Positions 4,849 through 61,157 of a stretch of 64,000 bases of DNA are shown here, piece after piece. Both the position numbers and the translations under genes were made by a program. Numbering within the stretch: position 1 is the stretch's first letter; every line of letters begins with the position of its first letter. Under the pieces are notes generated by a model that did no database searches, was not told the DNA's origin, and saw only the letters and a program-made list of their open reading frames with translations. Source of the stretch: Octopus vulgaris (taxonomy: Eukaryota); assembly GCA_951406725.2 (NCBI GenBank), contig OX597818.1, positions 69,688,001-69,752,000 of the forward strand. The letters run 5' to 3'.

Positions 4849-5044
4849 TATTATTTACATTATTTACATTTGACAGATATTTGTCCTCATCTTGTTTGTT
4901 GTTAACGCAATGTTTCAGCTGATGTACTCTCCAGCCTTCATCAGGTGAATGGGTTCTCATTCCTAAGGTATATTTCCGATGTTATCATTATTAATATTAT
5001 TATCATTATTGTTATTATTATCATTGTCATTATCATTATTATTA

Positions 5045-5102
<58 letters not shown>

Positions 5103-5143
5103 TATTATTATTATTATTATCATTATTATCATTATTATTATTA

Positions 5144-5195
<52 letters not shown>

Positions 5196-5311
5196 TATTA
5201 TTATTATTATCATTATTATCATTATTATCATTATCATTATCATTATTATTATCATTATTATTATTATTATTATTATCATTATTATTATTATTACTATTAT
5301 TATTATTATTA

Positions 5312-5381
<70 letters not shown>

Positions 5382-5421
5382 CATCATTATTCAGGTTACA
5401 GCCTGGAATCAAACTCGGATT
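4849..5421 (-). mobile_element. tRNA-head/(AAT)n/hammerhead SINE-like element, copy 1 (5'-truncated, expanded AAT tract)
   Basis: Matches 8703-8930 and the reverse complement of 23261-23504; about 400 bp of (ATT)n at 4983-5390. Confidence 0.85.
4904..4947 (-). ncRNA. Degenerate minimal hammerhead ribozyme
   Basis: Minus strand reads cac-CTGATGA-a-ggctg-gagagtacat-cagct-GAAAC-att-gcgtt; CpG-type substitutions and partial loss of stem I. Confidence 0.55.
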
Positions 5422-8700: not shown

Positions 8701-8702
8701 TG

Positions 8703-8862
8703 TGTACATTATTTACATTATTTACATTTGACGGATATTTGTCCTCATCTTGTTTGTTGTTAACACAACGTTTCGGCTGATATACCCTCCAGCCTTCATC
8801 AGGTGTCTTGGGGAAATTTCAAACCTGGGTTCTCATTCCTAAGGTATTTTTCGATGTTATCA

Positions 8863-8893
<31 letters not shown>

Positions 8894-8930
8894 AGAAGTC
8901 ACTGCCTGGAATTGAACTCGGAATCTTGGG
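8703..8930 (-). mobile_element. tRNA-head/(AAT)n/hammerhead element, copy 2 (5'-truncated, inverted arm)
   Basis: Reverse complement of about 8965-9210; retains B box, AAT tract, hammerhead and AATGTAAAT tail. Confidence 0.9.
8762..8807 (-). ncRNA. Minimal type I hammerhead ribozyme (intact core, Penelope dimer type)
   Basis: Minus strand reads GACAC-CUGAUGA-A-GGCUG-gagggtatat-CAGCC-GAAA-CG-UU-GUGUU: stem I GACAC/GUGUU, stem II GGCUG/CAGCC, palindromic AACGUU in place of stem III, predicted cleavage after GUU. Confidence 0.8.
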
Positions 8931-9005
8931 CATATGGCATAGTGGTTAAGAGCGCAGGCTACTAACTCCAAGATTCCGAGTTCGATTCCAGGCAATGACC
9001 TGTAT

Positions 9006-9052
<47 letters not shown>

Positions 9053-9245
9053 TAGCATTGAAAAATACTTTAGGAATGAGAACCCAGGTTAGAAATTTCT
9101 CCTAGACACCTGATGAAGGCTGGAGGGTATATCAGCCGGAACGTTGTATTAACAACAAACAAAATGAGGACAAATATTCATCAAATGTAAATAATGTAAA
9201 TAATGTAAATGATGGACATAATTCCTCATCTCTTAATTATAGAAC
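8928..9245 (+). mobile_element. tRNA-head/(AAT)n/hammerhead element, copy 3 (full-length)
   Basis: A box tggcatagtgg, B box gagttcgattcc, (AAT)n, hammerhead motif, (aatgtaaat)n tail. Confidence 0.9.
9105..9150 (+). ncRNA. Hammerhead ribozyme with core mutation (GAAA to GGAA)
   Basis: gacac-CTGATGA-a-ggctg...cagcc-GGAAC-gtt-gtatt; probably inactive. Confidence 0.6.
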
Positions 9246-9329
9246 AATATGGAAATTGTTCAGATCGGAATATAAAAAATGAGTATTTGCCCAGAATTAT
9301 CGAAATATTTAAAACACACCTCAGTAACA

Positions 9330-9477
9330 AATTATTTACTTCATTATCCTATTTACTGTGAAGGGATGAAAAGCAAAGTCGACCTTGGTGGAATTTGAAC
9401 TCAGAATGTAGCGATGGGTGAAATACCACTGAACATTTAGACCGGTGGGCTAACAATCCTGGCAGCTCACTGCCTTA
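9330..9477 (-). mobile_element. SINE family A (head and core)
   Basis: ggatgaaaagcaaagtcgaccttggtggaatttgaactcagaatg...gctcactgcctt. Confidence 0.8.
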
Positions 9478-9570
9478 AAACTCTAATAATAATGCATCAT
9501 AAAATGCCCAAGTCTATTAGCTTAGAAGAGAAAGTGGTAGGAAACTATTGAGTGTTAGGGAGTAGTTGAA

Positions 9571-9790
9571 CACTTTGGCATTTCAACTGGCCTTTTCCAG
9601 CCTAAATATTCAATTTGCTTTATGTTCCAATGGGCCAGATCTGGCCTCTCACACTTACCCTTCAATGTTATTCTAAAAATAAATGATAATATCGTTGTAA
9701 TCTTGGAGATTCAGGATAATGAATGATTAATTCAGAATGACGTGAATGAATAAGCATTTACGTTGGACAGAATAATCTGCATCGAATGGG
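9571..9790. mobile_element. Degenerate piggyBac-type MITE
   Basis: tgaa|cactttggca ... atcgaatggg|ttaa resembles decayed CCCTTT..AAAGGG termini with TTAA-like flanks. Confidence 0.45.
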
Positions 9791-10082
9791 TTAAGTGAGT
9801 ATTTGCGAATGTTGATGTTGTTAATGAAGGTTCCTCTCACGCTCTTTGCAGATAACAGCATGGCCTAGTGTGTTGTTCCTGTGTTTGATATAATTGCCCA
9901 AAAGAGCAAGCCAATTATCACCATAGCAACAGAACTTCCACCTTGTACTGACAATGATGCTTCTATGGGGTTACTAGATCTGCTTGAAATAGCAGTGAAA
10001 TCAACATCAATTCTCGCTATTTTTTCTAGGATAAAAAGGAGTGTAGTCCAAGATGCACAATGCCAAAAAGAGAAAAAAAAAC

Positions 10083-10205
10083 AGTGGTAGTGAATTGACA
10101 AAGTCATCAGAGTGCCAGATAGAATGCCTTACAGCATTCTTTGCTCTGAGTTCAAATCCCACCAAGGTCAACTTTGCTTTCATTCTTTTACAACAGATGA
10201 AAATT
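10083..10205 (+). mobile_element. SINE family A fragment followed by (GGT)n(GAT)n at about 10232-10311
   Basis: ctctgagttcaaatcccaccaaggtcaactttgctttcattc. Confidence 0.7.
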
Positions 10206-13200
10206 ATCTATCTGGGAAAGCTGATATAAAGTGGTGGTGATGGTGGTGGTACTGGTGGTGGTGGTGGTGGTGGTGGTGGTGGTGGTGGTGGTGGTGATGA
10301 TGATGATGATGAAGGGTAGGAGTGTGTTGAGGTCAGCCATTGGAGTATGATCAGTTTTCAAGTATTTTAACTATTTATATCAGTCAACTTGGCTACAGCT
10401 TTTCCGTCCAGTTCAAGAGGAATGGTGGGATCAGGGGATCAATTTGCATGCTCACTCGATACAGCATTGGTGTCAAGCTGCCTCTGAACAATAATGGCTG
10501 AACGCCTCTAAGCTGGATTGCAGGCTGAAAGACAACAAAGTGAAGGTGGATATAAGAAGACAAAACTGTGTCACAAAGCACTTTTCTTTGATACTTTCAT
10601 GTTTTCTCTCATCTCTGTGAAGTTTTTGGTTACCCCTGGGCTGCATAATTAAATCTTCTTAATCACATTCCCTTGCTTGCTTTCTTTTAAATTTCTGAAG
10701 AGAGAAACAATCGAGTATTATTGACATTGGAAGACAATTTGTCAGAGAGGCGACTGCGTGACAATGTAAATTCCAATTTGTATTTGTATTTTCTTTTACA
10801 TGAAAGTACAAGTTTTCTGCTGAGCTGGTCATGTTCTAAGATTCACAGACAACCAGACAACAGCTGGACCTGTGCAGTTGCTAAGTGGTATACAAGAAAC
10901 CAGAAAAGTCTACTTAGAAGGCCTTCATAGCAATGAGAAGATGATCTAGTTAAGTAATTTGGGTTAAGATGGAAAAGGATGGCACAATCAAGACAAAATT
11001 AGAAGTGCATTGTGACCAGTGGTGTATAACTGCTTGTGATGGTCTGACTAATACTGTGATACTGAGATTTTTTTTACTTACGCTGGCTTTGATTGAGTAG
11101 ATAAAATATCCTGATTGCAAGCTCATGAATTGTAAGTTCAGATTAGCTGCATGACTAGAGTTTCTTTGTAAGGTAGAATACTTTATTTTACATTGTCTTA
11201 AAGGAATTAGTTCTGGTGGAGAATTAAAAGATCATCTAGAAAGCCATTTGCAGCAGACTGGCATTGATACAGAGGAAGATTTATCAGTCCTACATTTCGA
11301 ATCCTGAACAGTGGAACTGAATGACTGGTCTTTGATGAAACCTTGTCAAGAGTTCCACAAACATCTACATTTACATTGATAAAATCCTTTGGAATAGCAT
11401 GAATATCACAACACCTCTTTCTTCTCTCGTTTCAGATTGTTCGACTCATTATCCTCATCATCCTTTAACGTCCATCGTCCATGCTGGCATGGGTTGTTAG
11501 AAGAAATCCATCGACAGTTCAAGTATTGTTACCACAACCATTTTCATAATTTATTATGTCAAGATTCCTCACTGTATAGAATTTACGACCAAGTTTAGTC
11601 CCCCTCACTGTTAATGGGGGAGTACGGTGTGTATAGCTAACTGCTGTTGAAGTTCAATGGATTGTAGGATTGGATTTCAAGGCTCTATGGATATTTATTG
11701 TCTGGAAAAGATTAGTTTAATGACCTTATGCTTTGTGGTTAATTGTATAAAGAGGGAATGTGTCTAATAAAAATTATGATGAATTACATTGACGAGATTT
11801 GGAAAACTAAATATAAAACCAGGAACACATTTGCTTTTAATGTAAAAAGAAAGAAAAAAATGAAAAAATTTTAGCTGTTTAGAATGGTTTATTGTGTAGA
11901 GTTTCTTTAGTATGGTATAATATAAAATAGTATAGTTTAGTAGGGTTTAGTAGAGTATAAAATAATGTAGTTCAGTAAAGTTTTATTCACTGACAATGTA
12001 ACCAATTCTGTTTATTTATGAAATTTTCTGGCGATTATTAAAAAGCTGAATTAACCTCGATTGAAAAAAGCAAATAAATTTCAGCAATCTTAATTGATTT
12101 ACTGAGTTTTTCAAAACCATAATTGTGCATCACAGCTTGTGGAGTGTTTATTCCAGTTGCCAAAGTTTTGTGCTGGAACTTTCCATGCATCCTCACACCT
12201 AAAATATCTGCTTGGCATAATTTGGAATTTGAAATTGCACATGAAGAAAGACAAACAAACCAGGTGAGTCAGTTGGATTTTTTTTTCCTATCTTCCTGTA
12301 CTTTTTTCTTTAGATTTTTTTTTTAATACTATTTTTGCATGTAACATAAGCTGGGCAAGCCAGAAAATTGAATATTTGCACAAATTGTTAAAATAACATG
12401 GTATGATCCCCTTCCTAAAATGAGTCATTCAACTCTAAAATGACAGTGGTAGCTAGTTTTAGTGAGGTCATCCAGGATAATACAGTAAGCCTGGATCAAT
12501 ATCAGCGGCTAGGTTAAAATGGTTGACCTTCCAATTAATGGCCTGGAACTTTAAACCTTCAGCTGTCTGCTTCCACTGAAAAATCGTTATTTATTTATCA
12601 AATATTTCTTGGCATAAATATTTATTTGGTTAGAAGTTGAGGAAGAAAATAGTAATTCCAGTGTCATTCATAGAAACTGGTAATAGAGGAGGACCTGTTT
12701 GTTTGTTATTTTCCATAAGAGTAACCAGAAATTTGACAGAGGTTAATGAGTTATTTAATAAATGAATCCTACTCGTTAGAATGTTATGTTCTCCACCTCC
12801 TCTCCACCACCTCTACGTCTTACTGTCAGGAAGTCAACATACCTTTATTAACATTCAGCTGAACTCTAAATTAAACATTTCTCTCCACAAATTAAGCTTC
12901 TAACAAGACAAATGGTTTTCTTCCTTTTCTTTCACATTAAATATTCTACAACATAAGGAATTAAGCCAAACTTCCTAATCAATATCTTTGATAACAGAAG
13001 AAGCTAATTTATCAACTGATAAAGAACTGCATATTTACCATTTTCTCCTAAATTTTATGTAACTTAACAGTAAACTATCAACAGAGGAACATCACAGTCC
13101 TGAGTTCAAATCTGCTTAAATATTGAGTAAAATATCTTTCCCCATGGATTTTTACATCCCACATAAAACATGTAGAAAAACTGATAAGAATTAGACTTGC

Positions 13201-13904
13201 ATTAGCATCTGAAGATAATGAAATGATTAAAGTTTCTGTATTTATGTAATTGTACTATATATAGAAACGGTAGAAAAACAGTCTAATACACAATATAGAG
13301 AGAGTAATAAAGATAAGACTTCAATCTGAATGAAGGTGAAATGATTAAATTTACTTATTTCTTCCTTTTTCAGCCTATTTTCACTAATAGCAGAGATTAG
13401 GCAAATGCGTTTATTATTGAAACACTGTATTACAGGAAAGTGTCCTTCTTGTCATTAACCCTTAGCTGCTATGTTTTTTGAATTAGGAATCTCTTACTTC
13501 ACACACCTACAAAGGTTCGAAACCAGTTGATGGGAGAAATAAAAAAAGTATTGCCACTTGTAGCTCATGATGCCCAGTAAACACACAAACACACATACAC
13601 ATAGACAATATACACGTATTCACACACACATACACATATTCACACACACACACACACACACACACAACCACTTCCAAATATAGCAATCATTTCCCCCTCT
13701 CATTACTAAATACGCAACTATTTAATCACCCCCCCCCCAAAAAAAAAAACCAATCATTTTTGTCTATAAATAATAATTGCATTGTTTAATTAACAACAAA
13801 TTAAAACATGCTTTAACTTATTTACTTATAATTAATAATTGCTATGTATAATTAACAGTTGTCATTATTTTTATTATTTATTAAAGCAACACCACACAGT
13901 CACT

Positions 13905-14060
13905 TAGTTTGCTTGAAATAGCAGCAAACTAGCCCTCTGAAGATGCCTTCTTATTTTAAAAATTTGAAGAACACACTGGAAATGTATTGGGTATATAAAA
14001 AGACTGCAACATTTTGATGAGAGGTCTCCTCTATAGGGACTGACTTGGGGTTAAACAATC
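13905..14060 (+). mobile_element. Old unclassified interspersed repeat (relatives near 9975, 18990-19160, 62710-62800, 63440)
   Basis: Recurring motifs tgcttgaaatagcagc and gactgacttggggttaaacaa / gacctggggctaaacaac. Confidence 0.4.
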
Positions 14061-15905
14061 GCATCCTCCCCACCCCATCAATTACTCAATCACTATCACT
14101 CTGTGAATGATGAATGATCTCCTTTATGTTAATCTTAAGAATATTGAAAATATGTGTTGAAACTCTGACAGTCAATTCGGTGATCGCAAACTCTCATTAA
14201 TTTTGATTTTAATCCAGAACACTTTCCATGGAAATCTTTATAAATATTTTAAATATTTATAACAATGGTAAAGATTCTACAATGAATATTTTATCTAATC
14301 TGAAAGGCTGACTTAGTCTAATTATATCTACCTAATTCCAACATAGATAAATGGATAGAAACATTCTTTTTCTTTCCTAACTAGAATGGAAAGCCTTATT
14401 TCTTAGTAATTTATTTTGTTTTGTTTTTTCTCTTTTTCTTTTCTGTTCTTCAAAGCATTGAAGAAAAGAAAAGAAGAATTTCTAGTTAAATTCCTGCTGT
14501 TTATATTGTTTCTGAGAACAGTCTTCGAAGTATGAAAATAGCTTCCAGCTTTATTTTATGATAAGGTAGTTAGTGCTAGAGAAGACATCCGACCGTAAAA
14601 TATCTGTTCCAAGCATTCATGCAAATACCTTAATTTTCAAACCTGTTATATCCTGCCATTGGCATATCAAAATGATACCAAAAAGAGAATGGAAAAAGTT
14701 TTGAAGACAAAGAAAACCTTAGAATTTCTTTCCTTAGTTCGTTTTCTTTATTTTTTTCTTTAAAAGATCCCAAACATGTTTCTTTTTTAATAAATATAAT
14801 AATTGTGATAAAAAGAAATTTTTAGTTGAATGCGTTTAGCTATGAAACAAATTTTGAGTCATATTATCCTTCAAGATTCTTAGTATCAAATGGTAATAGG
14901 CTAGAAGAAGGCAGTGGAGTGAAATAGTGTTTAGAAAAAGAGTAATAAAACAAAGCCTTTAATGAAATACACCATGAACATGTTAAAGATTAAGAAGGCT
15001 CTACATGACATTAGTTTTTTCACAACTAAGATTAAGTTTTTTTTTTGTTTTAAACCAGTTTGACCGTATTTATTTGAGACAGTTCTTAATATTGGTTCTT
15101 TTGCTAAATTTCTTTCATTCTATCATAAAAATCAAACCTCCATCTGTGAGTTTACTCTCTTTCACACTTCATTTGCTGATTCACCCATTTTGTAGACAGT
15201 TTTTTCACACCATTAATTCCCAAGCCTGGACATTCCTAACATCTTTCAAGCATCAACAAAGATTAAAGCTACTTCCTTTAGATTTCTTCTCAATATTTAC
15301 CATTTTGTTTTGCTTGTTTTTCCTCTTCTTTAATGCCTCCTATTTAATCTCTGGCAAGAAGTTTTCGATGAAACCTCAGCAAAATTTAATGATCAAGTCA
15401 CGGCAATGTCATTTTAGTTCTTCAATAAGCACTGACGCTATATTATTCCAATCGAGGTCTTTTAGTAAACTCATTTAGATAACTGGCCATAAAGTAATTG
15501 CAACGCCAACAAATGGTTGCTTCTAAATAATTAGGAACCACTGAAGACAGTGTCAGCGGAACGGTAAATTCTGGACTAGAATAACTTGGAAAGTTTGTTT
15601 CTTTTCTTTCATACAACTTTGACACAGTAAATACCAGTGATATATTTGGGTTTGTTCAATCAAACCTACCTCTGTCTGCAAATGTTGTGGTTGTTATGAC
15701 AATTCATATGCCATGGTGTTGTCACCACAGCTTTTTCAATGGCCTTGTCATTGATTCACTGCCCTTTTGATGGTGGGAGATCAGCAGAAGCGAGTGGGGG
15801 AAATTCAGTGGAAAGGACTTCAATGAAAGAGTAACTTCTTTTTACTGCTGTTTTATGTCCTTTGGCAACATACAGCAGTGAAAGATACACACACACACAC
15901 ACATA

Positions 15906-15951
<46 letters not shown>

Positions 15952-16042
15952 ATGGCATCTTGGGCAAGTGGCTTCTGCTATAGCCTCAGGCTGATCAAAG
16001 CCTTATGAGTAGAATTGGTAGATGGAAACTGAAAGAAGTCTA

Positions 16043-16081
<39 letters not shown>

Positions 16082-16395
16082 GAGAGGGGGAAGAGAGGAG
16101 AGAGAGAGGAGAGAGAGAGGGAAGAGAGCGAGGAGAGAGAGAGGGAGAGAGAGAGGGGAAGAGAGAGAGATGTGCATGTCTTTGCACCTGTGTTTCTCCA
16201 CCACACCACTTGACAACTAGTGTTGGTGTGTTTATGTCCCTGTAACTTTGCAGTTTGGCAAAAGTGCCCAATGCAACAAGCACCAGGCTTAAACAGAAAA
16301 CAAGTCCTGGCATCAATCCATTTGACGAAATATTCTTCAAGGTGGTGCTTCAGCATGGCCACTGTCAAAGGACTGGAAAAAGTAAAAGATAAACA
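15952..16395 (+). mobile_element. tRNA-derived SINE family B (5'-truncated, internal microsatellite)
   Basis: ttgggcaagtggcttctgctatagcctcaggctgatcaaagcc...gaaactgaaagaag is colinear with 52937-53337. Confidence 0.8.
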
Positions 16396-16399
16396 ATGT

Positions 16400-16469
16400 G
16401 TGTATGTATATATATACATATATGTGTATATATACGTGGTGTGTATATATATATATCTATATATATATC

Positions 16470-16503
<34 letters not shown>

Positions 16504-16906
16504 GATAGATATAGATATACATATGTGCATATATATATATGCACATATATATATTTATATATATATATATATGCATATATATACATACATAAATATATAT
16601 ATGTACATATATATATATATACATATATATATATGTATATATATATTTGTGTATATATATATTTATGTGTGTATATAAGCAAACAGACAGACAAACAGAT
16701 CGATCGATAGATAGATATAGCTTTATATATATACATATATATATATATATATCTTTGTTTCTCTCCTTGTTTTTTCTGTGTCCCTTTCTGTAGAAGAGCG
16801 TAGGCTCGGAACAATAAAGACATTTTCTATTCCTTAGCGTTATACTAATACATCTGTTTGTTTTGTACTCCACCTATCTTCGTCTTTTGTTTTTTTCGTA
16901 AACTCT

Positions 16907-16948
<42 letters not shown>
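16400..16948. repeat. (TA)n-rich compound microsatellite with an embedded unique insert
   Basis: Directly visible. Confidence 0.9.
16753..16911 (+). mobile_element. Penelope-type terminal-repeat fragment with a degenerate hammerhead-like motif (16784-16819)
   Basis: cttt-CTGTAGA-a-GAGC-gtag-GCTC-GGAAC-aat-aaag; stems I and II pair, core has substitutions; flanked by (TA)n. Confidence 0.5.
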
Positions 16949-16950
<2 letters not shown>

Positions 16951-17740
16951 TCCTCATTTAACGCTTACATTCCATGCTGGCATGGGTTGTCTGGTTTGAC
17001 AGGAGCTGGTTAGTTAAAGGGCTGCATGGACTCCATTTGTCTGTTTTGGTAAGGTTTCTATGACTGGATGCCCTTCCTAATGCCAAAGTCTTTACAGAGT
17101 GTTCTGAGTGCTTTTAATGTGGCCCAGCACTGGCGCTTTTAGGTAGCACTGGTATGAGCACTTTACATGGAACCTATATGAAAACTTTCACATGGCTTCA
17201 GCATGGCCACTTTTACAAAGCACTGACAAAGGCACTTTTATGTGACATTGGCATGGGTGCTTCTATGAGGCCCCAGGACCTACAAGCCTGAAATGCTTGG
17301 GTACCTCAGCTGAGAGAGGAACATAGAGTGCATGCTTGTATGGCCGTGATTTTACTTAGCTTTGCTTGTCTTTTCAAGCACAAAAAACTGCCAGACTTCT
17401 CAGCCCCTTGTCATGTCTTTTGTGAGGTCCAATATTTGAAGATCCTTTCTCACTACTTCATCCCACATCTTCCTAGGTCTTACCTTTCCACACATTCCCT
17501 CCACAATTAGAGATTGGCACTTCTTGATGCAGCTGTTCTCATCCATATGCGTCACATGACCAGTGAAGCCTTCTCTCCGGCACACTACAGCTGACGCCTC
17601 ATTTACCCGCGTTTTCTCTCAACTCATTTATACTCTGTCGCACAAGCACACTGACATTGCACATCCAGGGAAGCACACCAGCTTCATTTCTTTCAAGCCT
17701 GCGCATGCCCTCTGCAGTCACAGCCCATGTTTCACTGCCT
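16949..17740 (-). mobile_element. Diverged RTE-clade LINE 3' end
   Basis: Minus ORF 17400-17585 (GHVTHMDEN..KKCQSL.VEG..GKVRPRKMWDEVV.KDL) is homologous to 46679-47101; same 3' UTR tail. Confidence 0.85.
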
Positions 17741-19617
17741 TATTTATATGTACATGTTAAGGTATGTACATAAAAACATATATCATATCAGCATGGAAAA
17801 CAGATGTTGAATGATGATGATGTATACATATATATATACACACATATATATATACATCATCATCATCATCGTTTATATATATAGCGAGAGAGAGGGAGAG
17901 AGAGAGAAACACACACACACATGTATATATGCATACAGATATATACATACACACACATAAATTACAAAATCAAGCAAGTTGTCTTAGATAACATAAATGT
18001 ACCTAGTTTGAGAGTAAGATGTATTGACCCTAATGGGATAACCCCCCCAGTGGTGGTTGAGTGATTATCAAAAATACCAACAAAGTTTGTGTGAGAGAAA
18101 TGGTGGTAAACCACAGTTGCTGGTCCTGTGGTATGTTTACTTGTATGAAATTTGATAGCAGAAAACACCAGGTCATTTTGGTGTAATGGTTATCCTGATC
18201 AAAATAATACGAGAAATACAGGTTTTATTTCTCGTAGGCAACCATCGCCACATTATTCTTTTTTACACTCATCTCATGAATGTATTGAGATCTTAACCAT
18301 TTATATTACACACACACACACACACACTCAAAAGTTTGTGCCTCTTCAAAGGCAAACAACAATCAATAAGTTGTTATACTGAGAATATTTATTAACATTA
18401 TCAATGCTTGTAAAGTGGGTCTCTTTCACCATTATGTTAAATGAAAATGTTATGTTTCCAAAACACTTTAGAAGTTTTTGGAATTAACTGATGAGAAAAA
18501 AAAAGCTGTGAAGAATTATTTACATTTCTCTGTTCCAGATTGTCTAAAAGCTGTATATTATAAAAGAAAAAGAAATTGATTAAAATGTATATATTCCAAA
18601 TGTTTCTGGTTGCACTAGAGTATGTGATATTAAGCTGTTAAACAACATCACTTTGCAATAATTGGAAAGAAAGTAGTTTTAAATTTCTTTTTATAATTTT
18701 TCTGAAATAAAATGCTATGTTTTTTTTTTCAGAATTAAATTTAATGAAAAACAGAAATTTGCCAGAAAAATGATAATTTCTTCTTCATGGTGATTTATTT
18801 TGTTTCAACACAAGAAAATGGTGCTGAACTGGTTGAAATAATACAGAGGCACTTGAGATTAAATTAGGACCTTTTTTACCGATATTTTTTATGATTCCCA
18901 TGGAGTAGAAACCGTTTTTAGTTTAAAGTCAGTAAAGACCCTTTCTTTCTTCTTTTTTTTAATTTTTATGGATGCATGTTGCAGTTGGGAGCAGAGCTTC
19001 AACATACTAAGATATCCTCAAAATGACATTTGATGATAGGTCTACTTATTTAGGGATAACCTGGGGCAAAACAACAATTACAACAACAACAGCTACAATC
19101 AGCACAAGCTAAAGTGGAAAAACTTTAAGTAATCGATTAACCTGCTAGAAATAGCAGCTATATCACCATCAACTCATACTCTTTCATAGTCATCATAAAT
19201 TAACAAGGCATTACAAATTGCGTAATGTAATGCTAGATATAATATGGTGGAAAATAAGAGGTGATGGTCATGGTTTGGATGCTGCAGATGTAAGTAAACT
19301 TAATCAGTTTTCATTGTAAAAATAAAGGTTGCTCCCATTGATAGATCAAAATGGGCAAGATACGTGTTTAGTGCATGGAATGAACCCCAGAATATTTTCT
19401 GTAGCAAGACCATCTCAACTGTTGCTTGGACAAGTTTAATTTTGGAAGATTTACAAACCTCGTTTTATAAAATGTTTCATGAAGAAGAAAATTAGGAATT
19501 ACGAGTTTAGGAATTGTTTATTAAGATAGACATGCTAGAGTATACGTATATAAAATATATATGCTAAAATAAGCAGTTCAAATACAGCATCAAAGTTTGG
19601 AAGTCTGTTATTAATAT

Positions 19618-20040
19618 TGTAGTGAGGGACAAGAAGATAGCACCATTTTGTATGAAATCTCGTCAGTAGCCATTACCATGTTTGAGACAGGAGCAAGATC
19701 TCACCTGCAACCATTTACCTTGCACAAGATGACCGTGAGACTATCATCAACAATGACTATTTAAGCAGAAGAATTAAGACTTTCTTTCTCTTTCTTCCTT
19801 CCCGCTTACTCTGAGAAACACTGCAAACCTGGCAGCTCACGGCAGACTCTTATCCCGCTCTAACTTCACCTGTTATCTCCAGAGGTAATGAACCTCTTGT
19901 GAACAGAGCTATATCGAACCACGTTCTGCCATAAAGATGGTCACTGGGAGTGAACCACTTGAACAAGAACTAAAAATAAATAACTATTGAATTGCACTCT
20001 GCTAGTAAACTTCTTTGAGTTCCAGATCCTTAAGACTACA
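19618..20040 (+). mobile_element. Candidate solo LTR
   Basis: TGTAGT...ACTACA inverted termini, TATA-like tatttaa (about 19758), AATAAA (19975); no clean TSD seen. Confidence 0.5.
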
Positions 20041-20119
20041 GAAATAATGGTAATGGGAGAAGGAGATATGCTACAGGTGTCACAAGCCTTCAATTCCCTT
20101 ATAATATAATTATTTTAAA

Positions 20120-20530
20120 ATGTTGGCACAAGGCCAGTAATTTTGAGGGAGGAATAAATTATATCAACCCCAGTATTCAACTGGTACTTTATTTATAAAT
20201 CCCAAAAGGATGAACGACAAAGCAGAATTTGGGCTCACAATATAGAGATGGACAAAATGCTGCCAAGCATTTTGGTCTGCATGCTAATGATTCTGACAGC
20301 TTGCCATTCTTTAATTAATATAATTATGAGAACAGTGAGCTTCTAGAATCATTTGAGCATTGAAATTATTTGAATCTTGTGGTATTTCTTCCACTTCTTT
20401 ACACTGAGAGTTCAAATTCTGTCACAGTCAGCTTTGCCTTTCACTTTTTTGGATTCCATGAAATGAAGTGCTGGTCAAGTGCTGTGCTTGGCGATATTGA
20501 CTTACTTCCTCCACTCAAAGACTGCTGGTG
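20120..20530. mobile_element. Two decayed family A SINEs, head-to-head (20120-20290 minus; 20330-20530 plus)
   Basis: Family core motifs present in opposite orientations. Confidence 0.65.
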
Positions 20531-20639
20531 AACTGTCTAAATCAAGCCATTAATGCAATTCAGAGCATTAAAAAAATATTTCTTGAATTCCTGGCACTGA
20601 TTTCAACAGAGTTTATTTTACAAACACACAAACAACTGA

Positions 20640-20769
20640 ATCCTGGTGCAGCTCTCTGGCTTGCCAGCTCCTATCAGCCCATGTCAGCATGGAAAATGGA
20701 AGTTAAATGATGATGATGATGATGATGATGACGACGACGACGACGACGATGACGATGATGATGATGATG
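20640..20769 (+). mobile_element. RTE 3'-tail fragment with (GAT/GAC)n tail
   Basis: cctggtgcagc...cccatgtcagcatggaaaatggaagttaaatgatgatgat. Confidence 0.75.
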
Positions 20770-21436
20770 AAACACATTAGAAGAGGGTGGAAGAGAGTAT
20801 GTTTGAAGGGTGGCATCGATGTAACAAATTTTCTCCTAAAAAGTTAAAGAATGTAACCATTAAAACAAATTATGAAAAGTGCCTTTTTTTCTATTCTTGG
20901 GCTTAGATCTGCAAAATGTTTACAAAAAACTTTCTGCTTTTATCCTTCAGACAATATTTTGCACAAAATTTCCAAACAACCATCTTTATAAAAGCTTTAA
21001 TTATTTTTAAAGCACCTCTGTGTTTGCCCTGATCGCAACTATTCATATCCTAAATGTTATTCTTAACAAAACCCACAAATTTGCTGAGACATTCTCTAAA
21101 TATTTTACTCTTGATGATTCTTACAGCTTCACTCACAAGTTCTTACTCCATCAGGAAATAAATGCAACATTTACTTCGGTCAAGAAATCAACCTTTAAAT
21201 AAGTTCAAAGAGTTTTCACATTTTCTTTCCATCTTATTTTAGGAATCAGTTTTGTTGTAATCATCTTCCATATTATCATTATCATCATCTTCATCTTCAT
21301 CAGTGTCATCGTCGCCATCATCATCGTCGCCATCATCATCATCGTTGTCATCACCTTTAATGTACAATCTCCATGCTGACATGGCTTGGTTACTTCAAAA
21401 GGATCTGCATAGTTGGACAACAATGTCTTACTCCAG

Positions 21437-21670
21437 CATCATCATCATCATCATCGTCGTTTAACGTCAGCTTTCCCTGCTGGCATGGGTTGGACGGTTT
21501 GACTGAGGACTGGTGAGCCAGATGGCTGCACCAGGCTCAATCTGATCTGGCGAAGTTTCTACAGCTGGATGCCCTTCCTAATGCCAACCACTTTGAGAGT
21601 GTAGTGGGTGCTTTTACGTGCGACTGGCACGAGGGCCAGTCAGGCAGTTCTGGCAACGACCAGGCTCAAC
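21437..21670 (-). mobile_element. RTE 3'-UTR fragment
   Basis: (cat)n-cgtttaacgtcagctttccctgctggcatgggttggacgg...ctacagctggatgcccttcctaatgccaacc. Confidence 0.85.
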
Positions 21671-22617
21671 ATCTAAGAATATTCCTGAGAAATTTCTGAA
21701 GAAATTTCCAATGTAGAGTTGAATTGGTTTGGATTTCATTCTGAGAATTTGTTTTCATTAATGCCATTCCAACTTGGTTGATTGAAATTCTTGTTACTCA
21801 TAAATCTCCGGCTACCAACCAACTTAACGATCAATTTTATTTACCATATTTAAAGAATTATAATTTTTAAAATGAATCACACTCTTGACAGAGAAATGAT
21901 TATTTTACAAGAAGAATCTTAATGTGTTCCGATTGTAATTCGGTAAAGTTTTCTCTTTTTTTTTTCCGGTAATAAGAAGAGATATAAATATTTTCAAAAT
22001 CCAGAATCAATGAATGTTTTGTCCATACAAATTAATCAGGAGAAGAAAATAAAATCAATATTTCATTTATTTTAGTTTAGCCTGATTAATTTTTTTTTTC
22101 TTTTTGCTGGTTTTATTTTCTCTTCAATCAAGGAAAATCTTGCAAATATCGCCATATTCCTGTGCACCTTTTGGCATTTTAGTGAAGATAATAAACAAAC
22201 TAACGTGAATCAATAAAGATGCTTGTCTAAAGTTATTTCGTTTCCCCTCTCACTTGAGCCACTCGAGTCACTTGAACAGTTTTCAACAATTTTCTCAAGA
22301 CACAAATGATAAAAAAAAAGCCAATGGGTAATTGACTAAACATTGATATTGTTGGAATATTGGAAGGAAACGCAGCTGAATAGAAAGATTTTAATTGATA
22401 GAGAAGCAAAGTCGCTGAAAGCTGGTTTTCTGTTTAAATTGCTCTTTATGCAAAGCATGGTTTCAAACCCTGCACAGACTGTAATGCTATGAGGCAGGAA
22501 GATCTTTCTATTTTGGAATGGTTTCAGAGAAGTGAAAGGAAATCGATTCGGAAGTGATATTTACAGCAAAAAACATTGGTATTAAAAAGATATCTTGGGA
22601 AAAAGTAATTTTTTCGA

Positions 22618-22830
22618 ATTTAGACTTGAAGCCAGCAGTTTTGAGGGGAGGGGTTTGTCAGTATCAGTGAACCCAAGGACTTGACTGGTATTTTATTATA
22701 TAGGCATTCAAATGATGGCAGATGAACATGTCCTTGGTAGGATTTGAACTCAGAACATTAAAGAGGCAAAAGAAATACTTGCAAGGTATTTTCACATGTT
22801 CTCTAACAATTCTGCGATTCACCACCTCAT
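22618..22830 (-). mobile_element. Decayed SINE family A
   Basis: gactggtattttatt...ggatttgaactcagaac. Confidence 0.65.
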
Positions 22831-23260
22831 TTTGGAAAATAATAATTAAAATAATTAAAATAATAATTAAAATAGCAGAAAAGAAAAGCAAAGAAATACA
22901 AACAGGTATTGATGTTACTGAATTGGCTTTTAAACTTTGTAAAATATTATTCTTTGACTGCCAAGTGGCTAACAGCAATCAGCTTCTATATTCTAGTAAT
23001 TTCAAAGTTGTTACCAGTTCAGACATGCTTGAGGCATATTCAAACCCATAAGAAAGTCTTTCACTGTAGTTTGTCAGGAAGAAAATTGCATGCTGCTTCA
23101 GGCCAGCCTAGAAATCTGTTATTCTTATAGTATTTTATTGTACATGGCATCAAATGTTGTCTACCTTATTTGTGATACCACAGATCCGTTTAATATCTGT
23201 TTAATGAATGTCTCTATTATTAGATTTATAAGCCCTAGAAATTCATTCCATAATTGCCAT

Positions 23261-23504
23261 GGGCATATGGCATAGTGGTTAAGAGTGCAGGCTACTAACA
23301 CCAAGATTCCGAGTTCAATTCCAGGCAGTAACCTGAATAATGGCAACAGCAACAACAGCAACATTGAAAATTACCTTAGAAATGAGAACCCAGGTTTGAA
23401 ATTTCCCCAAGACATCTGATGAATGCTGGAGGGTTTATCAGCCGAAACGTTGTGTTAACAACAAACAAGATGAGGACAAATATTTATCAAATGTAAATAA
23501 TGTA
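23261..23504 (+). mobile_element. tRNA-head/hammerhead element, copy 4 (full-length, short spacer)
   Basis: A box tggcatagtgg, B box gagttcaattcc, aat/aac spacer, hammerhead at 23411-23456, aatgtaaataatgta end. Confidence 0.9.
23411..23456 (+). ncRNA. Minimal hammerhead ribozyme, core intact, stem II base mismatch
   Basis: gacat-CTGATGA-a-tgctg-gagggtttat-cagcc-GAAAC-gtt-gtgtt. Confidence 0.65.
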
Positions 23505-27585: not shown

Positions 27586-29115
27586 AAAAGCAGTTAAAAA
27601 AATTCCCAAATTGGAAGAGTCCAGGACTGGATGTGGTCCAAGGTTAATGGATGAAGAAGCTGAGAACGCTCCATGAAAGGATATCAAAACAGCTAGATGA
27701 GTACTTGCAGGAAAGTGCAGTACCCAACCGGAGGACAAAAAGGAAGACATCGTTATGTACCAAGGATCCTGAAAAGGGAAATGTTGCATCCAACTTTCAA
27801 CCAATAACATGTCTTTTGATAATGTGGAAGCTAATGTCAGGTGCTTTGGTCAGTGGTCTGTATAGATACTTAGAAGAATATGGACTGCTGCCTATTGAAC
27901 AGAAAGGGTGCCGAAAGAGGAGCCGGGGAATGAAGGATCAGCTCTTAATCAATAATCTAATTATCAGAAACTACAAAAGAAGACACACAAACCTGAACAT
28001 GGCATCGGTTGACTATCACAAAGCATACAATATGATACCACACTCCTGCATAATAAGAACAATGGAAAGGAATGGAGTAGCAGAGAATAGGAGAAGCTTT
28101 ATATGGAATAGCATGAAATACTGGAGAATAGAATTGGCAGCAGGGAAGCAAGCACTAGGAGAGGTGAAAATCAAGAGAGGAATCTTCCAAAGAGACTGTG
28201 TCCCCATTGATATTCATGCTGGAAATGATCCCCTTGAGTGAAATACTTCAGAAAATAAAGCTGGGATATGATCTGGGAAGAGGTAAGGGAAAACTAAACC
28301 ACTTGCTATTCATGGTTGATCTGAAGTTATTCACAAAAACTGAGGCAGAACTGGACGGCCTAGTCCAGTCTGTGCAGATTTTCTCCAGTGATATTAAGAT
28401 GGAGTTTGGACTCTCAAAATGTGCTACGTTGGTGATGAAATGAGGAAAGCTTGCCAGGACAGAAGGCATATGGTTGCCTAGTGGTGAAATGATGAAGACA
28501 ATTCATCCTCAAGCTAGCTATAAATACCTGAGAATACTTGAGGCCAATGGAATCAAACAGCACAAAATGAAGGAAAAAACAAAAAGAGAATACCTGCGGT
28601 GAGTGAGAAAAATATTGACTTCAAAGCTGAATGCCAGCAACATTATTTCGGCAATAAACTCAGGGGTAGTCGTAGTAGTTCAGGATGTCACTGGAATCCT
28701 GAAGTAGACAAAGAAGGAGCTAAAGGTGATGGACAGGAAGTCAAGAAAGCTCCGAACAATGCATGGAGTCCATCATCCACAAACAGACACTGATTGTATA
28801 TACATGAAGAGAGCAAATGGAGGAAGGAGACTGACAAGTGTGGAAGAATGCATGCATATCGAATTTGAGAGCTTGATAAGATACCTCGCCCAGAGTAAGG
28901 AGTGAGAGAGAATTGAGAGCAGAGAAAAAAGGGAAAATAAAGGAAGAAGTACAAAAAAGACATGAAGAAGAATTACATTAGAAGGGACTACACAATCAAT
29001 TCCATGTAGCCACAACAGAAGTTGCTGGAAAAAATAGGTGGAATTGGCTGAAGAAAGGAACCCTAAAAAAAGAAACTGAAAGCACTATACTGGCAGCACT
29101 GGACCAAACTTTGGC
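27586..29115 (+). mobile_element. R4/Dong-like non-LTR retrotransposon RT region, pseudogenised (element 1)
   Basis: [67 protein letters not shown]; frameshifts and stops. Confidence 0.9.
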
Positions 29116-30203
29116 CATGAGTTGGAGGGTCAACCTTCAGAAGGAAGGAAAACTGATACAAATAGCGGCAAAACACGAGCAAAACAAAAAACTGTTCTCA
29201 GTATTTAAGGAAGCTGACAAATACAAACAAGAAATCATACCACCTAATAAATATGAAAAAGAAGAAGAAGATGAAGAAACAACAAAAGCTATAAAACAAA
29301 TGAAATCCAAACTAAAACTAGAACAACAAAAAACCATGATAAAACGATGGCAAGAAAAGCCCCTTCATGGTAAATACTGGACTAAACTAAATGCAAAAGA
29401 AATAGACAAAGAAAAATCCCAGCAATGGTTGAGAAGCTCAGGACTCAAAGCAGAGACAGCGGGATTTTTAATTGCAGCACAAGACCAAAGCCTCCCCACC
29501 AGAAATTATCAAAAACATGTAATGAAAAGAAATATAACAAGTAACTGCAGAATATGTGAAGATGGACAAGAAACGATAAATCATATTATTTCTGGCTGCC
29601 CAGTCCTGGCTAAGAAGGAATATATTCACAGACATGACAGAGTTGGAACTTACATACACTGGAAGCTATGCCAACATTATGGAATAACAACAGAAAAAAG
29701 ATGGTATAGGTACACACCAGAAAAGGTCACAGAAAACGAGAAAGCAACCATACTCTGGGATATGTCGATATACACAGATAGAGAAATTAAGGTCAACAGA
29801 CCAGATATAGTTATAAGAGATCATGAAGAAAAAAACGTTTTCTAATTGATGTATCAATACCAGCAGATGACAACGTGTCTCTAAAAGAAATGGAGAAACT
29901 TTCAAAATACAAATACCTGGAAATAGAGGTAACCAGAATGTGGAATCTAAAAACAGAAACAATTCCTATCATAGTAGGTGCATTAGGTATGATAAAAAAA
30001 TATTCAGACAAATACATAACAAAAACACCAGGACTTACAAACACATATAACATACAGAAAATTGCACTACTAGGCACTGCACACATCCTATGCAGAACAC
30101 TTTCCATACAATAACCATCAGAGCATCACAACAAATCACAACACATACCCAAGGCACACAGAGCTGCGCTCGGTAGTGAAAGCACGCTATAAAGATAAAA
30201 CTA

Positions 30204-46037: not shown

Positions 46038-47213
<1,176 letters not shown>

Positions 47214-48764
47214 CATGATGGACTTCTTTCAATTTCCATCTAGCAAGTTCATTCACCAGTTTTTAATTGTGTGTGTGTGTGTAGCTGCATTTGTAATTTC
47301 TTATCACTCTGGGCATTGTTAAACTTGTCTATGTCCTCTGCCTTCTCCTTTTCCTCCTCCTCTTTCTCCTCCTCAACCTCCTTCTCTTCCCCTTGATCAT
47401 CATCATCAAACACTACTATATGATTCATCATCAATGTCATTGTATTCTTCTTCTGTGAGGGAATGCAGGAGTGAAATGAAAATATAGATACATAAGTGAA
47501 ACCCTACAGCAGCCTTCAGTGCATCTGATGTTTATCTTTCATATGTTGAACAGTGAAAGCTTGTGGGAAGTTTCACTCCGTCTGCTGCTTATTGTCTCCA
47601 TTTTGATGTTCATTAAGTATACAATGGTGGGAAATGAGAGGGAACCAGATTAATATTACAGAAATACTTAATGCTCATCTAACTCCCTCAGATTATCAGA
47701 GAGATATTTGCCACATAAGAATATCAACTTTTAAGAAATACTTCTTGCATATTTTCTTTTGTAAAATTCCAATTTTGAAAAATTCCACAACAAATCATTT
47801 GGAATAAATATCAGAACATCAAATAATCTTGTTCAGTTTGACACTGATGTAATATTAGTTCTTTTAGACAAGTTGATATTTACAAGTTACCATAGAGAAA
47901 CTATCCAGAGTTTTCTAAAACATGAGAAATTATCAGTAAATTGAGATCTAGTAATACTGATTAAAACTAGTGGTAAGAAATTTTCAAGAGAGTTGAACAT
48001 CAGAAGACCTTCAGAGAAGAATCCCCACCCACTCAGTCACGTGTTTTGGATCTTAACCTCTTATCTTCCAAGAGGACTGGGCCACATCTAGGTCATGACC
48101 CCTAGGTACCATTCTACTGACACTTTTTAGCCACTTGGATATCAGAGACTTGTGCATTGAAACCACTTGGAGATTTCCTCTAGTTGTAACTTCTCCCCAT
48201 TGACTCATCTCTCGAACTCATTCTTAAAGAAGAAATAATCTTGGTTGCCATGTTAGTGGTGAAACTTAAATGCTACCACAATGACTCACTCAGACTTATT
48301 TGTCTTAGCATTGAAATATGAAAATTGCCTTCAAGCAGTATGGAGGTCGTTTCTGTTCCAATTTGACCAGATCCAACTGGAACAACTGTCTCTGATATTG
48401 CCTTTCAGAAAACATAGCTTCTTTTTATTTTTTTTTGGCAAACTCTAGTGATGAATTTCAAGGAAGACAACCTGAAAATTTTATCTTTTGTTTACAGCAT
48501 TGAGTGAGTAGATTTCGAGCACAGAAAAAATCAAATGCATGCTCCAGCCTTATCAGACCTCATTTGGGAATGATTATCTTTGGCCTCAGTTTACCATTGA
48601 CTTGCTTTACTCAGGCTCTCAAGTCAGATGCAAGCAAATGGATGCCATTGTGGTTTACAGCATGTCTTGGACATATTTTTAGACCAGCAGATCTTCTCAT
48701 TCCTTTCAGTCTCTTCTAGAAATGGAGACAACAGACAGACACACAGACTGTCAAGAATCGACTG

Positions 48765-59689: not shown

Positions 59690-60412
59690 CAGGAGATTGC
59701 CACAAAGTACCTGGTGAATAAGAGATGCAACCACAGGTGTCGGCTGTGTCATGTTTCTGTGGAAGACATTACGCATGTGATAAGCAGCTATCTTAATATG
59801 TCGTCACACTACTACTACCCTATTCAGCACGATACCATTGCTAAAACAATTTACAATGCCATCACAAAATGTCTGTCCTGAAATAAACTTAGAATATTCC
59901 TCTGTTATGGAATACATTCATAAACACCAATTCAAGGAATACTGGTGGAATACTCCCATCAAACCTTCTGTCAAAAGTAAGTGTAACTGGCCAGATATTG
60001 TTGTTTGGGGCAGAGGGGCAAAGATATGTACCATCATAGTGGTTAGGTGACCTGCAGATATAAATATCCCTTTGAAAATCAAAGAAAAAGAGGATATCTA
60101 TAGACAACTGGTTCGAAATTTCCACCTTCTAAATCCAGACTATAAATTCATATTCATACAAATAATAATTGGAGCTCTAAGTTTTGTTAGTAAATGCTTA
60201 AAGGAGAATCTGGATAAACTGGGATTTTCAGAAAGAGAAATTGACTGGCTGATCTGTACATTACAAGTGCAATCTGTGAGTGGAACAGTGAAAATATGCA
60301 AAACTTTTCTCAAGTTCCAAGTGTGAATTTGTCTCAGTTAACTACATCCCAAAGATGGAATCTTTGTTGGAAACCAGTTCCCTCCACAGGGAAGACTATA
60401 ATAAATAAAAAA
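59690..60412 (+). mobile_element. RLE-type non-LTR retrotransposon 3' end, second copy
   Basis: CRLCHVSVEDITHVISS (finger), HDT, WWNTPIK..NWPDIVVW, KIKEKEDIY, IIIGAL; A-rich end. Confidence 0.85.
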
Positions 60413-60435
60413 CAGAAGTCACATACATACATAGA

Positions 60436-61157
60436 CACCCATGCCAACCCCCCATGCTTGCGAAGACATGTTGGGGCAAGCGAAATCGAAACCGAATTGA
60501 ACCAGCCAGGATCCCTGGCCTGGTGGTACGTAAAAAGCACTATCCGACTCGTGGCCGTGGCACGTAAAATACTCCAATGCGACCGTACGACAGGCACCCA
60601 TGCCAACCCCCTTTGCTTGTGAAGACATGTTGGGGCAAGCGAAATCGAAATCGAATTGAACCAGCCAGGATCCCTGGTCTGGTGGTACGTAAAAAGCACT
60701 ATCCGACTCGTGGCCGTGGCACGTAAAATACTCCAATGCGACCGTACGACAGGCACCCATGCCAACCCCCTTTGCTTGTGAAGACATGTTGGGGCAAGCG
60801 AAATCGAATTGAACCAGCCAGGATCCCTGGTCTGGTGGTACGTAAAAAGCACTATCCGACTCGTGGCCGATACCAGCACCGCCTCGACTGGCTTCCGTGC
60901 TGGTGGCACATAAAATAAACCAATCTGACCGTGGCCGTTGCCAGCCTCGCCTGGCACCTGTGCAAGTGGCACGTAAAAAGCACCCACTACACTCACGGAG
61001 TGGTTGGCGTTAGGAAGGGCATCCAGCTGTAGAAACATTGCCAGATTAGACTGGAGCCTGGTGCAGCCTTCTGGCTTCCCAGAACCCCGGTCGAACCGTC
61101 CAACCCATGCTAGCATGGAGAACGGACGTTAAACGATGATGATGATGATGATGATGA
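60436..61157 (+). mobile_element. RTE 3'-UTR element with internal 159-bp tandem repeat (about 2.7 copies)
   Basis: Units start at 60436, 60595 and 60754; the standard RTE tail and (GAT)n follow. Confidence 0.9.

What the first reader, a model, noticed from the sequence alone, without database searches (positions are those of the whole stretch)
8703..23504. Family of tRNA-promoter short elements carrying a Penelope-type dimeric hammerhead ribozyme (SINE/retrozyme hybrid)
Seen: four copies (4849-5421 minus, 8703-8930 minus, 8928-9245 plus, 23261-23504 plus) share one architecture. It runs: tRNA-like head with A and B boxes (loosely tRNA-Ser-like), variable (AAT)n spacer, GACAC-CUGAUGA-A-GGCUG-loop-CAGCC-GAAACGUU-GUGUU, then an (AAUGUAAAU)n end, with no obvious TSD. 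Established: Penelope-like elements and animal retrozymes carry minimal type I hammerheads whose stem III is replaced by a palindrome (here AACGUU) and which cleave as dimers. Schistosome Sm-alpha is a precedent for a tRNA-derived repeat with a hammerhead. Inference: this is a Pol III-transcribed, self-cleaving non-autonomous element mobilised by Penelope RT rather than a LINE. Four copies in 64 kb suggest high genomic abundance. I know of no description in cephalopods but cannot exclude one.
Basis: partly seen in the sequence, partly recalled or inferred. Interest (0 to 1): 0.85.

Follow-up and report, generated by a model that had tools for sequence, protein, structure and literature searches.

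The report
Penelope retrotransposon with built-in tRNA promoter
The repeat is the end piece of a Penelope-type jumping gene that has a tRNA-like promoter sequence just ahead of its hammerhead-ribozyme motif, and most copies that reach this sequence begin right there, so the promoter likely turns the end piece into a short SINE-like element copied by the Penelope enzyme.

Summary
The repeat is real, but it is not a free-standing SINE/retrozyme. It is the pseudo-LTR (pLTR) of a Penelope/Poseidon-type element (RT plus C-terminal GIY-YIG-type domain). The tRNA-like head lies 29 nt after the ORF stop (28 of 30 ORF-end loci). In tandem copies the hammerhead and 'tail' run in frame into the ORF (12 of 30 loci). 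Copies show PLE marks: inverted upstream partner 57 of 86, optional 3' tail 57 of 86.

The new part: of 31 tail-selected copies reaching head position +4, 25 start within -12..+4 and 6 go further upstream (about 3 expected). This fits Pol III initiation at the captured A/B boxes, giving SINE-like RNAs that carry the PLE priming region. No TTTT is shared by copies over the ~2.9-kb unit.

A hairpin at the same place is a rival cause. Pol III transcription and self-cleavage were not shown. Of the four window copies only one has an intact ribozyme, and it lacks the A box. About 42,000 loci (19,000-80,000), ~6% diverged.

The parts
8701..8929 (-). 5'-truncated pLTR copy (starts at head +38), inverted partner of the 8928-9246 copy
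8762..8807 (-). Intact minimal type I hammerhead motif: 5-bp stem I, core with extra A after A9, 5-6-bp stem II, ACGU palindrome; predicted cut between 8767 and 8766
   Evidence: features as in PMC4209133
8701..8836 (-). Start of the PLE reading frame (ATG 8836-8834), running through the hammerhead and the AAUGUAAAU repeats
   Evidence: same frame continues into the ORF in tandem copies
8928..9003 (+). tRNA-like head, +1 = 8928; A box 8935-8945, B box 8980-8988
   Evidence: alignment to genomic tRNAs
9004..9054 (+). (AAT)n run between head and ORF start
9105..9150 (+). Hammerhead motif with core A13 changed to G (predicted inactive)
9076..9246 (+). First 57 codons of the PLE frame (one stop in this copy), ending with the optional ~28-nt PLE tail (about 9219-9246)
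23218..23260 (+). Last codons of the PLE ORF, stop TAA 23229-23231, and 29-nt UTR ahead of the head
   Evidence: same junction in ORF-end loci
23261..23504 (+). Head (23261-23335), short AAC/AAT run, hammerhead 23411-23456 with G10.1 changed to T, repeats
4850..5419 (-). Decayed copy: head +45..+75 only, long (AAT)n, hammerhead 4903-4949 with broken palindrome, internal deletions

Best explanation
The repeat is the pLTR of a Penelope/Poseidon-type retrotransposon that carries a tRNA-derived A/B-box sequence 29 nt after its stop codon, and most head-bearing short copies likely come from Pol III transcripts starting about 7 nt before the tRNA-like head, which the element's own RT/endonuclease would copy from priming sites just past the hammerhead. 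Shown: the layout is ORF stop, 29 nt, head, (AAT)n, ATG, hammerhead, repeats, tail, rest of ORF; PLE-type insertion marks; a sharp pile of 5' ends at the head start. Inferred: Pol III makes the RNA. Two cDNAs primed on opposite target strands join at their ends, often through the self-complementary TGCCC-AC-GGGCA, giving head-to-head pairs such as 8701-9246. The two 3' ends correspond to the two internal RT start sites described for Poseidon_Ac. The hammerhead would cleave only as a dimer or with protein help, and uncleaved RNA is the main template. The family looks old; no whole ORF was found.
For: Head follows the ORF end in 28 of 30 loci picked by the endonuclease C-terminus. L081 has a 569-aa open frame (RT, thumb, GIY-YIG-type end), then head and tail, with an inverted partner. 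RVT_1 hits on 2 of 4 fragments. The tail leads straight into the ORF in 12 of 30 N-terminus loci. L095 reads 206 codons from the ATG through the hammerhead, 39% identical to the N-terminus of an 847-aa homologue, hammerhead-coded residues included. 5' ends in 86 tail-selected loci: 36 end in or before the AAT run, 19 at +5..+75, 25 at -12..+4, 6 further upstream (classed by hand). End rate is 0.10 vs 0.0067 per nt, binomial P 6e-20; P 6e-7 counting only ~14 that are not fold-backs. In 30 head-selected loci only 3 reach the UTR/ORF. The short copies share no upstream flank. Hairpins as strong or stronger lie all along the element, and the hammerhead hairpin has no pile of ends. No TTTT between +1 and the 3' end in 4 of 4 copies. 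Inverted partners and the optional tail are PLE traits (PMC8557442 passages; PMC11167929).
Against: A hairpin (-14..+10, -5.7 to -11.6 kcal/mol in four copies) sits exactly at the peak, and roughly 10 of the 25 peak junctions are fold-backs on it. The -12..+4 window was chosen after seeing the data. RNA-seq shows no piled starts or ends, and depth follows the genomic copy profile (unstranded libraries, species match not verified). A and B boxes are no better kept than the rest of the head among copies. 19 of 50 head-bearing copies still end inside the head. Rfam and ARAGORN do not recognise the head as a tRNA.
Confidence: 0.7

Rival explanations
1. All copies are ordinary 5'-truncated PLE insertions from long Pol II transcripts. 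The tRNA-like piece is a passenger (an old SINE head in the UTR), and the pile of 5' ends comes from RT stalling or cDNA fold-back at the -14..+10 hairpin.
For: Hairpin and palindrome at the peak; fold-back junctions are common (joints at 2196-2206); short and long copies are one family of similar divergence; PLE copies are normally truncated.
Against: About 14-15 peak copies join unrelated DNA or an inverted tail rather than folding back (by eye). A stall would be expected at the 3' foot of the stem (+10), not at -7..+4 (inference). Comparable hairpins elsewhere show no pile.
Confidence: 0.2
2. A long transcript is cut at the tRNA-like structure by RNase P or a similar nuclease, and the 3' product is the template for short copies.
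For: 11 of the 25 peak copies start at +1..+2 or -2.
Against: Many start at -5..-9, upstream of an RNase P site. The head does not fold as a cloverleaf in 3 of 3 copies.
Confidence: 0.06
3. One reading: a separate non-autonomous SINE/retrozyme family that replicates through hammerhead cleavage and circular RNA.
For: PLE-type hammerhead; short copies outnumber ORF-linked ones (6 of 86 reach upstream of -12).
Against: The unit is the pLTR of the coding element. No fixed differences between 78 short and 49 long copies. No tandem arrays of the short unit among the loci read. Only 6 of 289 copies start at 94-98 around the cut site.
Confidence: 0.04

Closest known systems
Penelope/Poseidon PLEs, e.g. 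Poseidon_Ac of Anolis (PMC11167929, parts 1-2 of 4 read)
   Same: Single ORF with RT then GIY-YIG-type endonuclease; hammerhead in the pLTR overlapping the ORF start; optional 30-40-nt tail; tandem and inverted copies.
   Different: No tRNA-derived A/B box is described there. Here the ATG lies ~30 nt before the ribozyme, and 5' ends pile at the tRNA-like head.
Minimal PLE hammerheads (Cervera and de la Pena 2014, PMC4209133, parts 1-2 of 4 read)
   Same: Extra nucleotide after A9, G10.1-C11.1 pair, short stem I, palindromic 15.2-16.2; most genomic motifs are single truncated copies.
   Different: Nothing in the ribozyme itself; no tRNA head is reported in the parts read.
Schistosome Sm-alpha / Sj-alpha (review PMC6765202, passages)
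   Same: Pol III promoter followed by a hammerhead in a short repeat.
   Different: Those are tandem multimers liberated by cleavage. Here copies are single or inverted, and the unit is part of a coding PLE.
TRIMp3: Cassandra, Helenus, Ajax (PMC10886601, passages)
   Same: Small-RNA-derived Pol III promoter placed in a retrotransposon terminal repeat, possibly from a SINE insertion.
   Different: Those are non-coding LTR elements with PBS, PPT and TSDs, and that paper expects the autonomous partner not to share the Pol III LTR. Here the coding PLE itself carries it.
Animal non-LTR retrozymes (PMC7229834 passages; bioRxiv 10.64898/2026.07.22.740005, parts 1-3 of 5)
   Same: Related to PLE pLTRs, type I hammerhead.
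   Different: Defined as tandem head-to-tail repeats giving circRNA, which was not seen here; no tRNA head reported.
Octopus tRNA-derived SINEs OK, OR1, OR2 (Ohshima and Okada 1994; not read, citation seen)
   Same: tRNA-derived repeats of octopus; OR1/OR2 being tRNA-Arg-related is recalled, not checked.
   Different: OR2 is listed as a CORE SINE (PMC4758252), whereas here only (AAT)n follows the head. Identity with OR1 or OK could not be tested.

Membership tests
EN+ Penelope-like element (Penelope/Poseidon clade) | One ORF with RT followed by a C-terminal GIY-YIG-type endonuclease | tested here: met
   569-aa frame in L081; RVT_1; GIY-YIG-type and CCHH residues read by eye, Pfam GIY-YIG does not hit this family but is listed for 3 of 120 homologues
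EN+ Penelope-like element (Penelope/Poseidon clade) | pLTR formed by partial tandem; inverted 5'-truncated partner; optional tail | tested here: met
   12 of 30 tandem; 57 of 86 inverted, 57 of 86 with tail
EN+ Penelope-like element (Penelope/Poseidon clade) | No Neptune/Nematis Cys linker between RT and EN; placement in RT tree | tested here: inconclusive
   Linker absent by eye, present in the control family; no tree against named Repbase elements was built
Minimal PLE hammerhead | Core, extra nucleotide after A9, stems I/II, palindromic stem III | tested here: met
   14 distinct motifs in 79 related loci keep the core with different stem II sequences, 12 of 14 with CG (pairing was required by the filter)
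Minimal PLE hammerhead | Self-cleavage as dimer or with protein | not testable with these tools
   The double-hammerhead fold (-22.1 kcal/mol) is less stable than two monomer folds or the MFE dimer (-30.6)
tRNA-derived SINE | tRNA-related head with A and B boxes at the 5' end of copies | tested here: met
tRNA-derived SINE | Pol III transcription | tested here: inconclusive
   Indirect only: 5'-end pile and no TTTT; RNA-seq uninformative
tRNA-derived SINE | Separate non-autonomous family, LINE-type tail and TSDs | tested here: not met
   Same sequence as the coding PLE, no fixed differences, no TSD in 11 copies
Non-LTR retrozyme | Head-to-tail tandem short units each with a hammerhead | tested here: not met
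   Copies are single, inverted pairs or followed by the ORF
Non-LTR retrozyme | Circular RNA | tested here: inconclusive
   No back-joint among the joints shown; 72 rows hidden, library unsuited

The most novel reading that the evidence does not exclude
The whole coding retrotransposon is built for Pol III. The captured tRNA promoter in the upstream pLTR drives a transcript through a ~2.9-kb unit purged of TTTT terminators, so one promoter yields both SINE-like short copies (primed in the first pLTR) and full-length copies (primed in the second). That would be an autonomous retrotransposon that is its own SINE master.
Probability: 0.2. Interest if true: 0.85.

Novelty: new variant of a known kind. 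Interest (0 to 1): 0.6.

Why it matters
SINEs are taken to depend on LINEs, and Pol III promoters in terminal repeats are described for non-coding LTR elements (TRIMp3). A tRNA promoter inside a PLE pLTR that yields tens of thousands of SINE-like copies would show a SINE can be born inside, and be spread by, a Penelope element. It would also mean some 'unclassified SINE' sequence in such genomes is really PLE ends. The pile of 5' ends gives a natural read-out of PLE template ends, supports joining of two cDNAs for the inverted pairs, and suggests uncleaved RNA is the template in vivo.

Tried and rejected
Rfam on the window and on two short stretches gave no hammerhead or tRNA hit. ARAGORN found none. 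The first tRNA comparison used only 50 nt of each gene and was redone.

5' ends at the cleavage site: 6 of 289 at 94-98, about twice background, not convincing. No diagnostic subfamily: differences at P<0.02 are frequency shifts confounded by how loci were selected.

No RNA holder was listed in the run index. RNA-seq laid 10,333, 7,685 and 7,071 reads of about 12 million records each, on both strands, with no piled ends; this does not test a short Pol III RNA.

No intact full ORF among the 150 scored RT hits (longest 569 aa, of 6,398 candidates).

TTTT depletion as proof of whole-element Pol III transcription was not accepted: single copies are not significant against codon shuffles, and two close relatives also have none, L334 with no A/B box after its stop.

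Earlier findings of this scan: nothing returned. Ten literature searches showed no paper on a tRNA promoter in a PLE. The library lacks most subscription papers, and Repbase, Dfam and SINEBase could not be searched. No supplements were read; the repeat library of PMC13282606 may hold this family under another label.
Full report
Observation. The motif at 8807-8762 (-) has the hammerhead core, a 5-bp stem I, a 5-6-bp stem II, an extra A after A9 and a CG between A15.1 and U16.1. These are the marks of minimal PLE hammerheads (PMC4209133). It is the only intact one, and that copy lacks the A box. The other three carry core or stem changes, and two of the four form one inverted insertion. The window lies in a 2.8-Gb genome of 227 contigs; I did not establish the organism and used octopus papers only as a lead from the finding.

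What it is part of. Two of the first 29 other loci (L027, L030) and the 23218 copy continue upstream into the end of a reading frame. Searching with that peptide gave 3,442 candidates. In 28 of 30 loci fetched the head follows the ORF end, 29 nt after the stop. Walking upstream gave RT motifs (RVT_1) and one natural copy, L081, with a 569-aa open frame ending in a GIY-YIG-type domain, then head and tail, with an inverted partner. Homologues number 2,989; full-length ones are about 810-855 aa and the best is 68% identical. In 12 of 30 loci picked by the N-terminal domain, the tail leads straight into the ORF (the listing was partly cut). L095 reads 206 codons from an ATG just after the AAT run, through the hammerhead. 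This aligns at 39% with the N-terminus of P0003, including the ribozyme-coded residues. So the repeat is the pLTR: 3' UTR plus first codons, as in Poseidon_Ac, whose ORF also begins in the hammerhead (PMC11167929). The AAUGUAAAU unit is three codons.

Insertion marks. In 86 tail-selected loci (90 fetched; three window copies and one duplicate dropped), 57 have an opposite-strand partner within 900 nt upstream, and 57 carry the optional ~28-nt 3' tail (simple tests). Both are PLE traits. No TSD was seen in 11 short copies. Sixty evenly placed 10-kb stretches held 9 loci, about 42,000 per genome (19,000-80,000). Copies differ by ~6% (tail) and 6-8% (head) from the column majority. A run labelled as another organism covers all 30 bins of a reference copy with contigs mostly 90-99% alike, so the family is probably shared among related species.

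The 5'-end pile. Of the 86, 36 end in or before the AAT run and 50 hold head sequence. Of those, 19 end at +5..+75, 25 at -12..+4 and 6 further upstream (classed by hand; L279 aligned to -17 through the palindrome and was counted in the peak). The end rate is 0.10 per nt in the peak against 0.0067 in the head; P is 6e-20, or 6e-7 for the ~14 that are not fold-backs (window chosen after inspection). Among 30 head-selected loci, the window's own included, only 3 reach the UTR or ORF. In the random sample 4 of 6 head-bearing loci start at -14..+3. The copies share no upstream flank, so the template itself appears to start there. The G at -6 follows a T and lies 13 nt before the A box, where Pol III would initiate (established knowledge, inference). 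Against this, a hairpin spans -14..+10 and fold-back junctions are common. But hairpins as strong occur all along the element, and the hammerhead hairpin shows no pile. Short (78) and ORF-linked (49) copies have no fixed differences.

Terminators. No TTTT site is shared by more than 13% of copies over three overlapping natural references that span the unit. Nine open frames hold 5 runs in 9,213 nt, against 13 expected from codon shuffles; they are not independent and none is significant alone. A young Neptune-like family in the same genome has 6-7 per 2.2-2.3 kb (7 copies). 38 of 79 related metagenome loci with long frames have 396 runs in 79 kb, and only 1 has none. However, that one (L334) and L336, two of the five closest checked, lack runs in the matched region, and L334 has no A/B box after its stop. 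This fits but does not prove read-through by Pol III.

Ribozyme. Among 318 copies the core decays like its flanks, as expected for dead insertions. The one shared non-CpG core variant is T to A at the free position 7 (34 of 252), which is also a conservative Asp/Glu change. Fourteen distinct motifs in related PLE loci keep the core with different stem II sequences, 12 with CG (pairing was required by the filter). The double-hammerhead fold is not the predicted minimum; PLE hammerheads are reported as weak in vitro or protein-assisted. Only 6 of 289 copies start near the cut site, consistent with uncleaved RNA as template. RNA-seq shows the sequence on both strands, depth following the DNA profile, with no piled ends; it cannot test a short Pol III RNA.

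Mechanism. Inferred: a tRNA-derived head with an (AAT)n tail became fixed between the stop codon and the ATG/hammerhead of a Poseidon-type PLE. Pol III transcripts from any intact head then contain the ORF-start region that PLE protein binds and primes within, and they were copied in trans in large numbers. Pairs primed on both strands joined head to head. I put this at 0.7, hairpin-driven truncation at 0.2, nuclease processing at 0.06 and a separate retrozyme at 0.04. That the repeat is a PLE pLTR is near certain.

Novelty. PLE hammerheads, pLTR-derived repeats and Pol III-hammerhead repeats (Sm-alpha) are known. A tRNA promoter in the pLTR of a coding PLE with SINE-like 5' ends did not appear in ten searches. 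Repeat databases and the 1994 octopus SINE paper could not be checked. Papers seen: parts 1-3 of 5 of the bioRxiv preprint; parts 1-2 of PMC11167929, PMC4209133 and PMC13282606; passages of PMC8557442, PMC10886601, PMC7229834, PMC4758252, PMC8967140 and PMC6765202. Verdict: new variant of a known kind, interest 0.6.

Noticed in passing
L303, L304, L312, L313, L316, L321, L325 (e.g. G000:C16:33683235-33686594): A young Neptune-like PLE family: many 781-aa open frames at 96-99% identity, Cys linker, Pfam GIY-YIG and RVT_1 hits, 3' UTR with ~80-nt repeated units; 9,837 candidates. Possibly still active.
   Followed up: partly
tail columns 94-96 (cut site): An in-frame 3-nt deletion that removes the GUU triplet is in 13 of 39 ORF-linked but 4 of 64 short copies; may be a ribozyme-dead lineage, recurrent slippage or a selection artefact.
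   Followed up: no
window 23247-23270 and ORF-end loci: The 12 nt before the head are an inverted copy of head +1..+10 with a 2-nt insertion, suggesting the head was itself acquired through a fold-back junction.
   Followed up: partly
L010, L011, L097, L247, L278: Several copies start in an (AAT)n run that follows the same other repeat, suggesting insertion into, or fusion with, the AAT tail of another abundant family.
   Followed up: no
window 27648-28238 and 28982-29842 (+); 46682-47239 (-): Broken non-LTR retrotransposon RT fragments, read by eye.
   Followed up: no
window 60337-61128: Tandem repeat of roughly 150-nt units giving repeated open frames.
   Followed up: no
L126 (G000:C12:25267077-25270148): Cluster of six tRNA-Cys-like genes and one Ser(ACT)-like variant within 3 kb.
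   Followed up: no
L334, L336 (metagenome loci): Close PLE relatives (48%, 45%) also lack TTTT in the matched coding region; L334 has a T-rich 3' UTR and a hammerhead but no tRNA-like head.
   Followed up: partly
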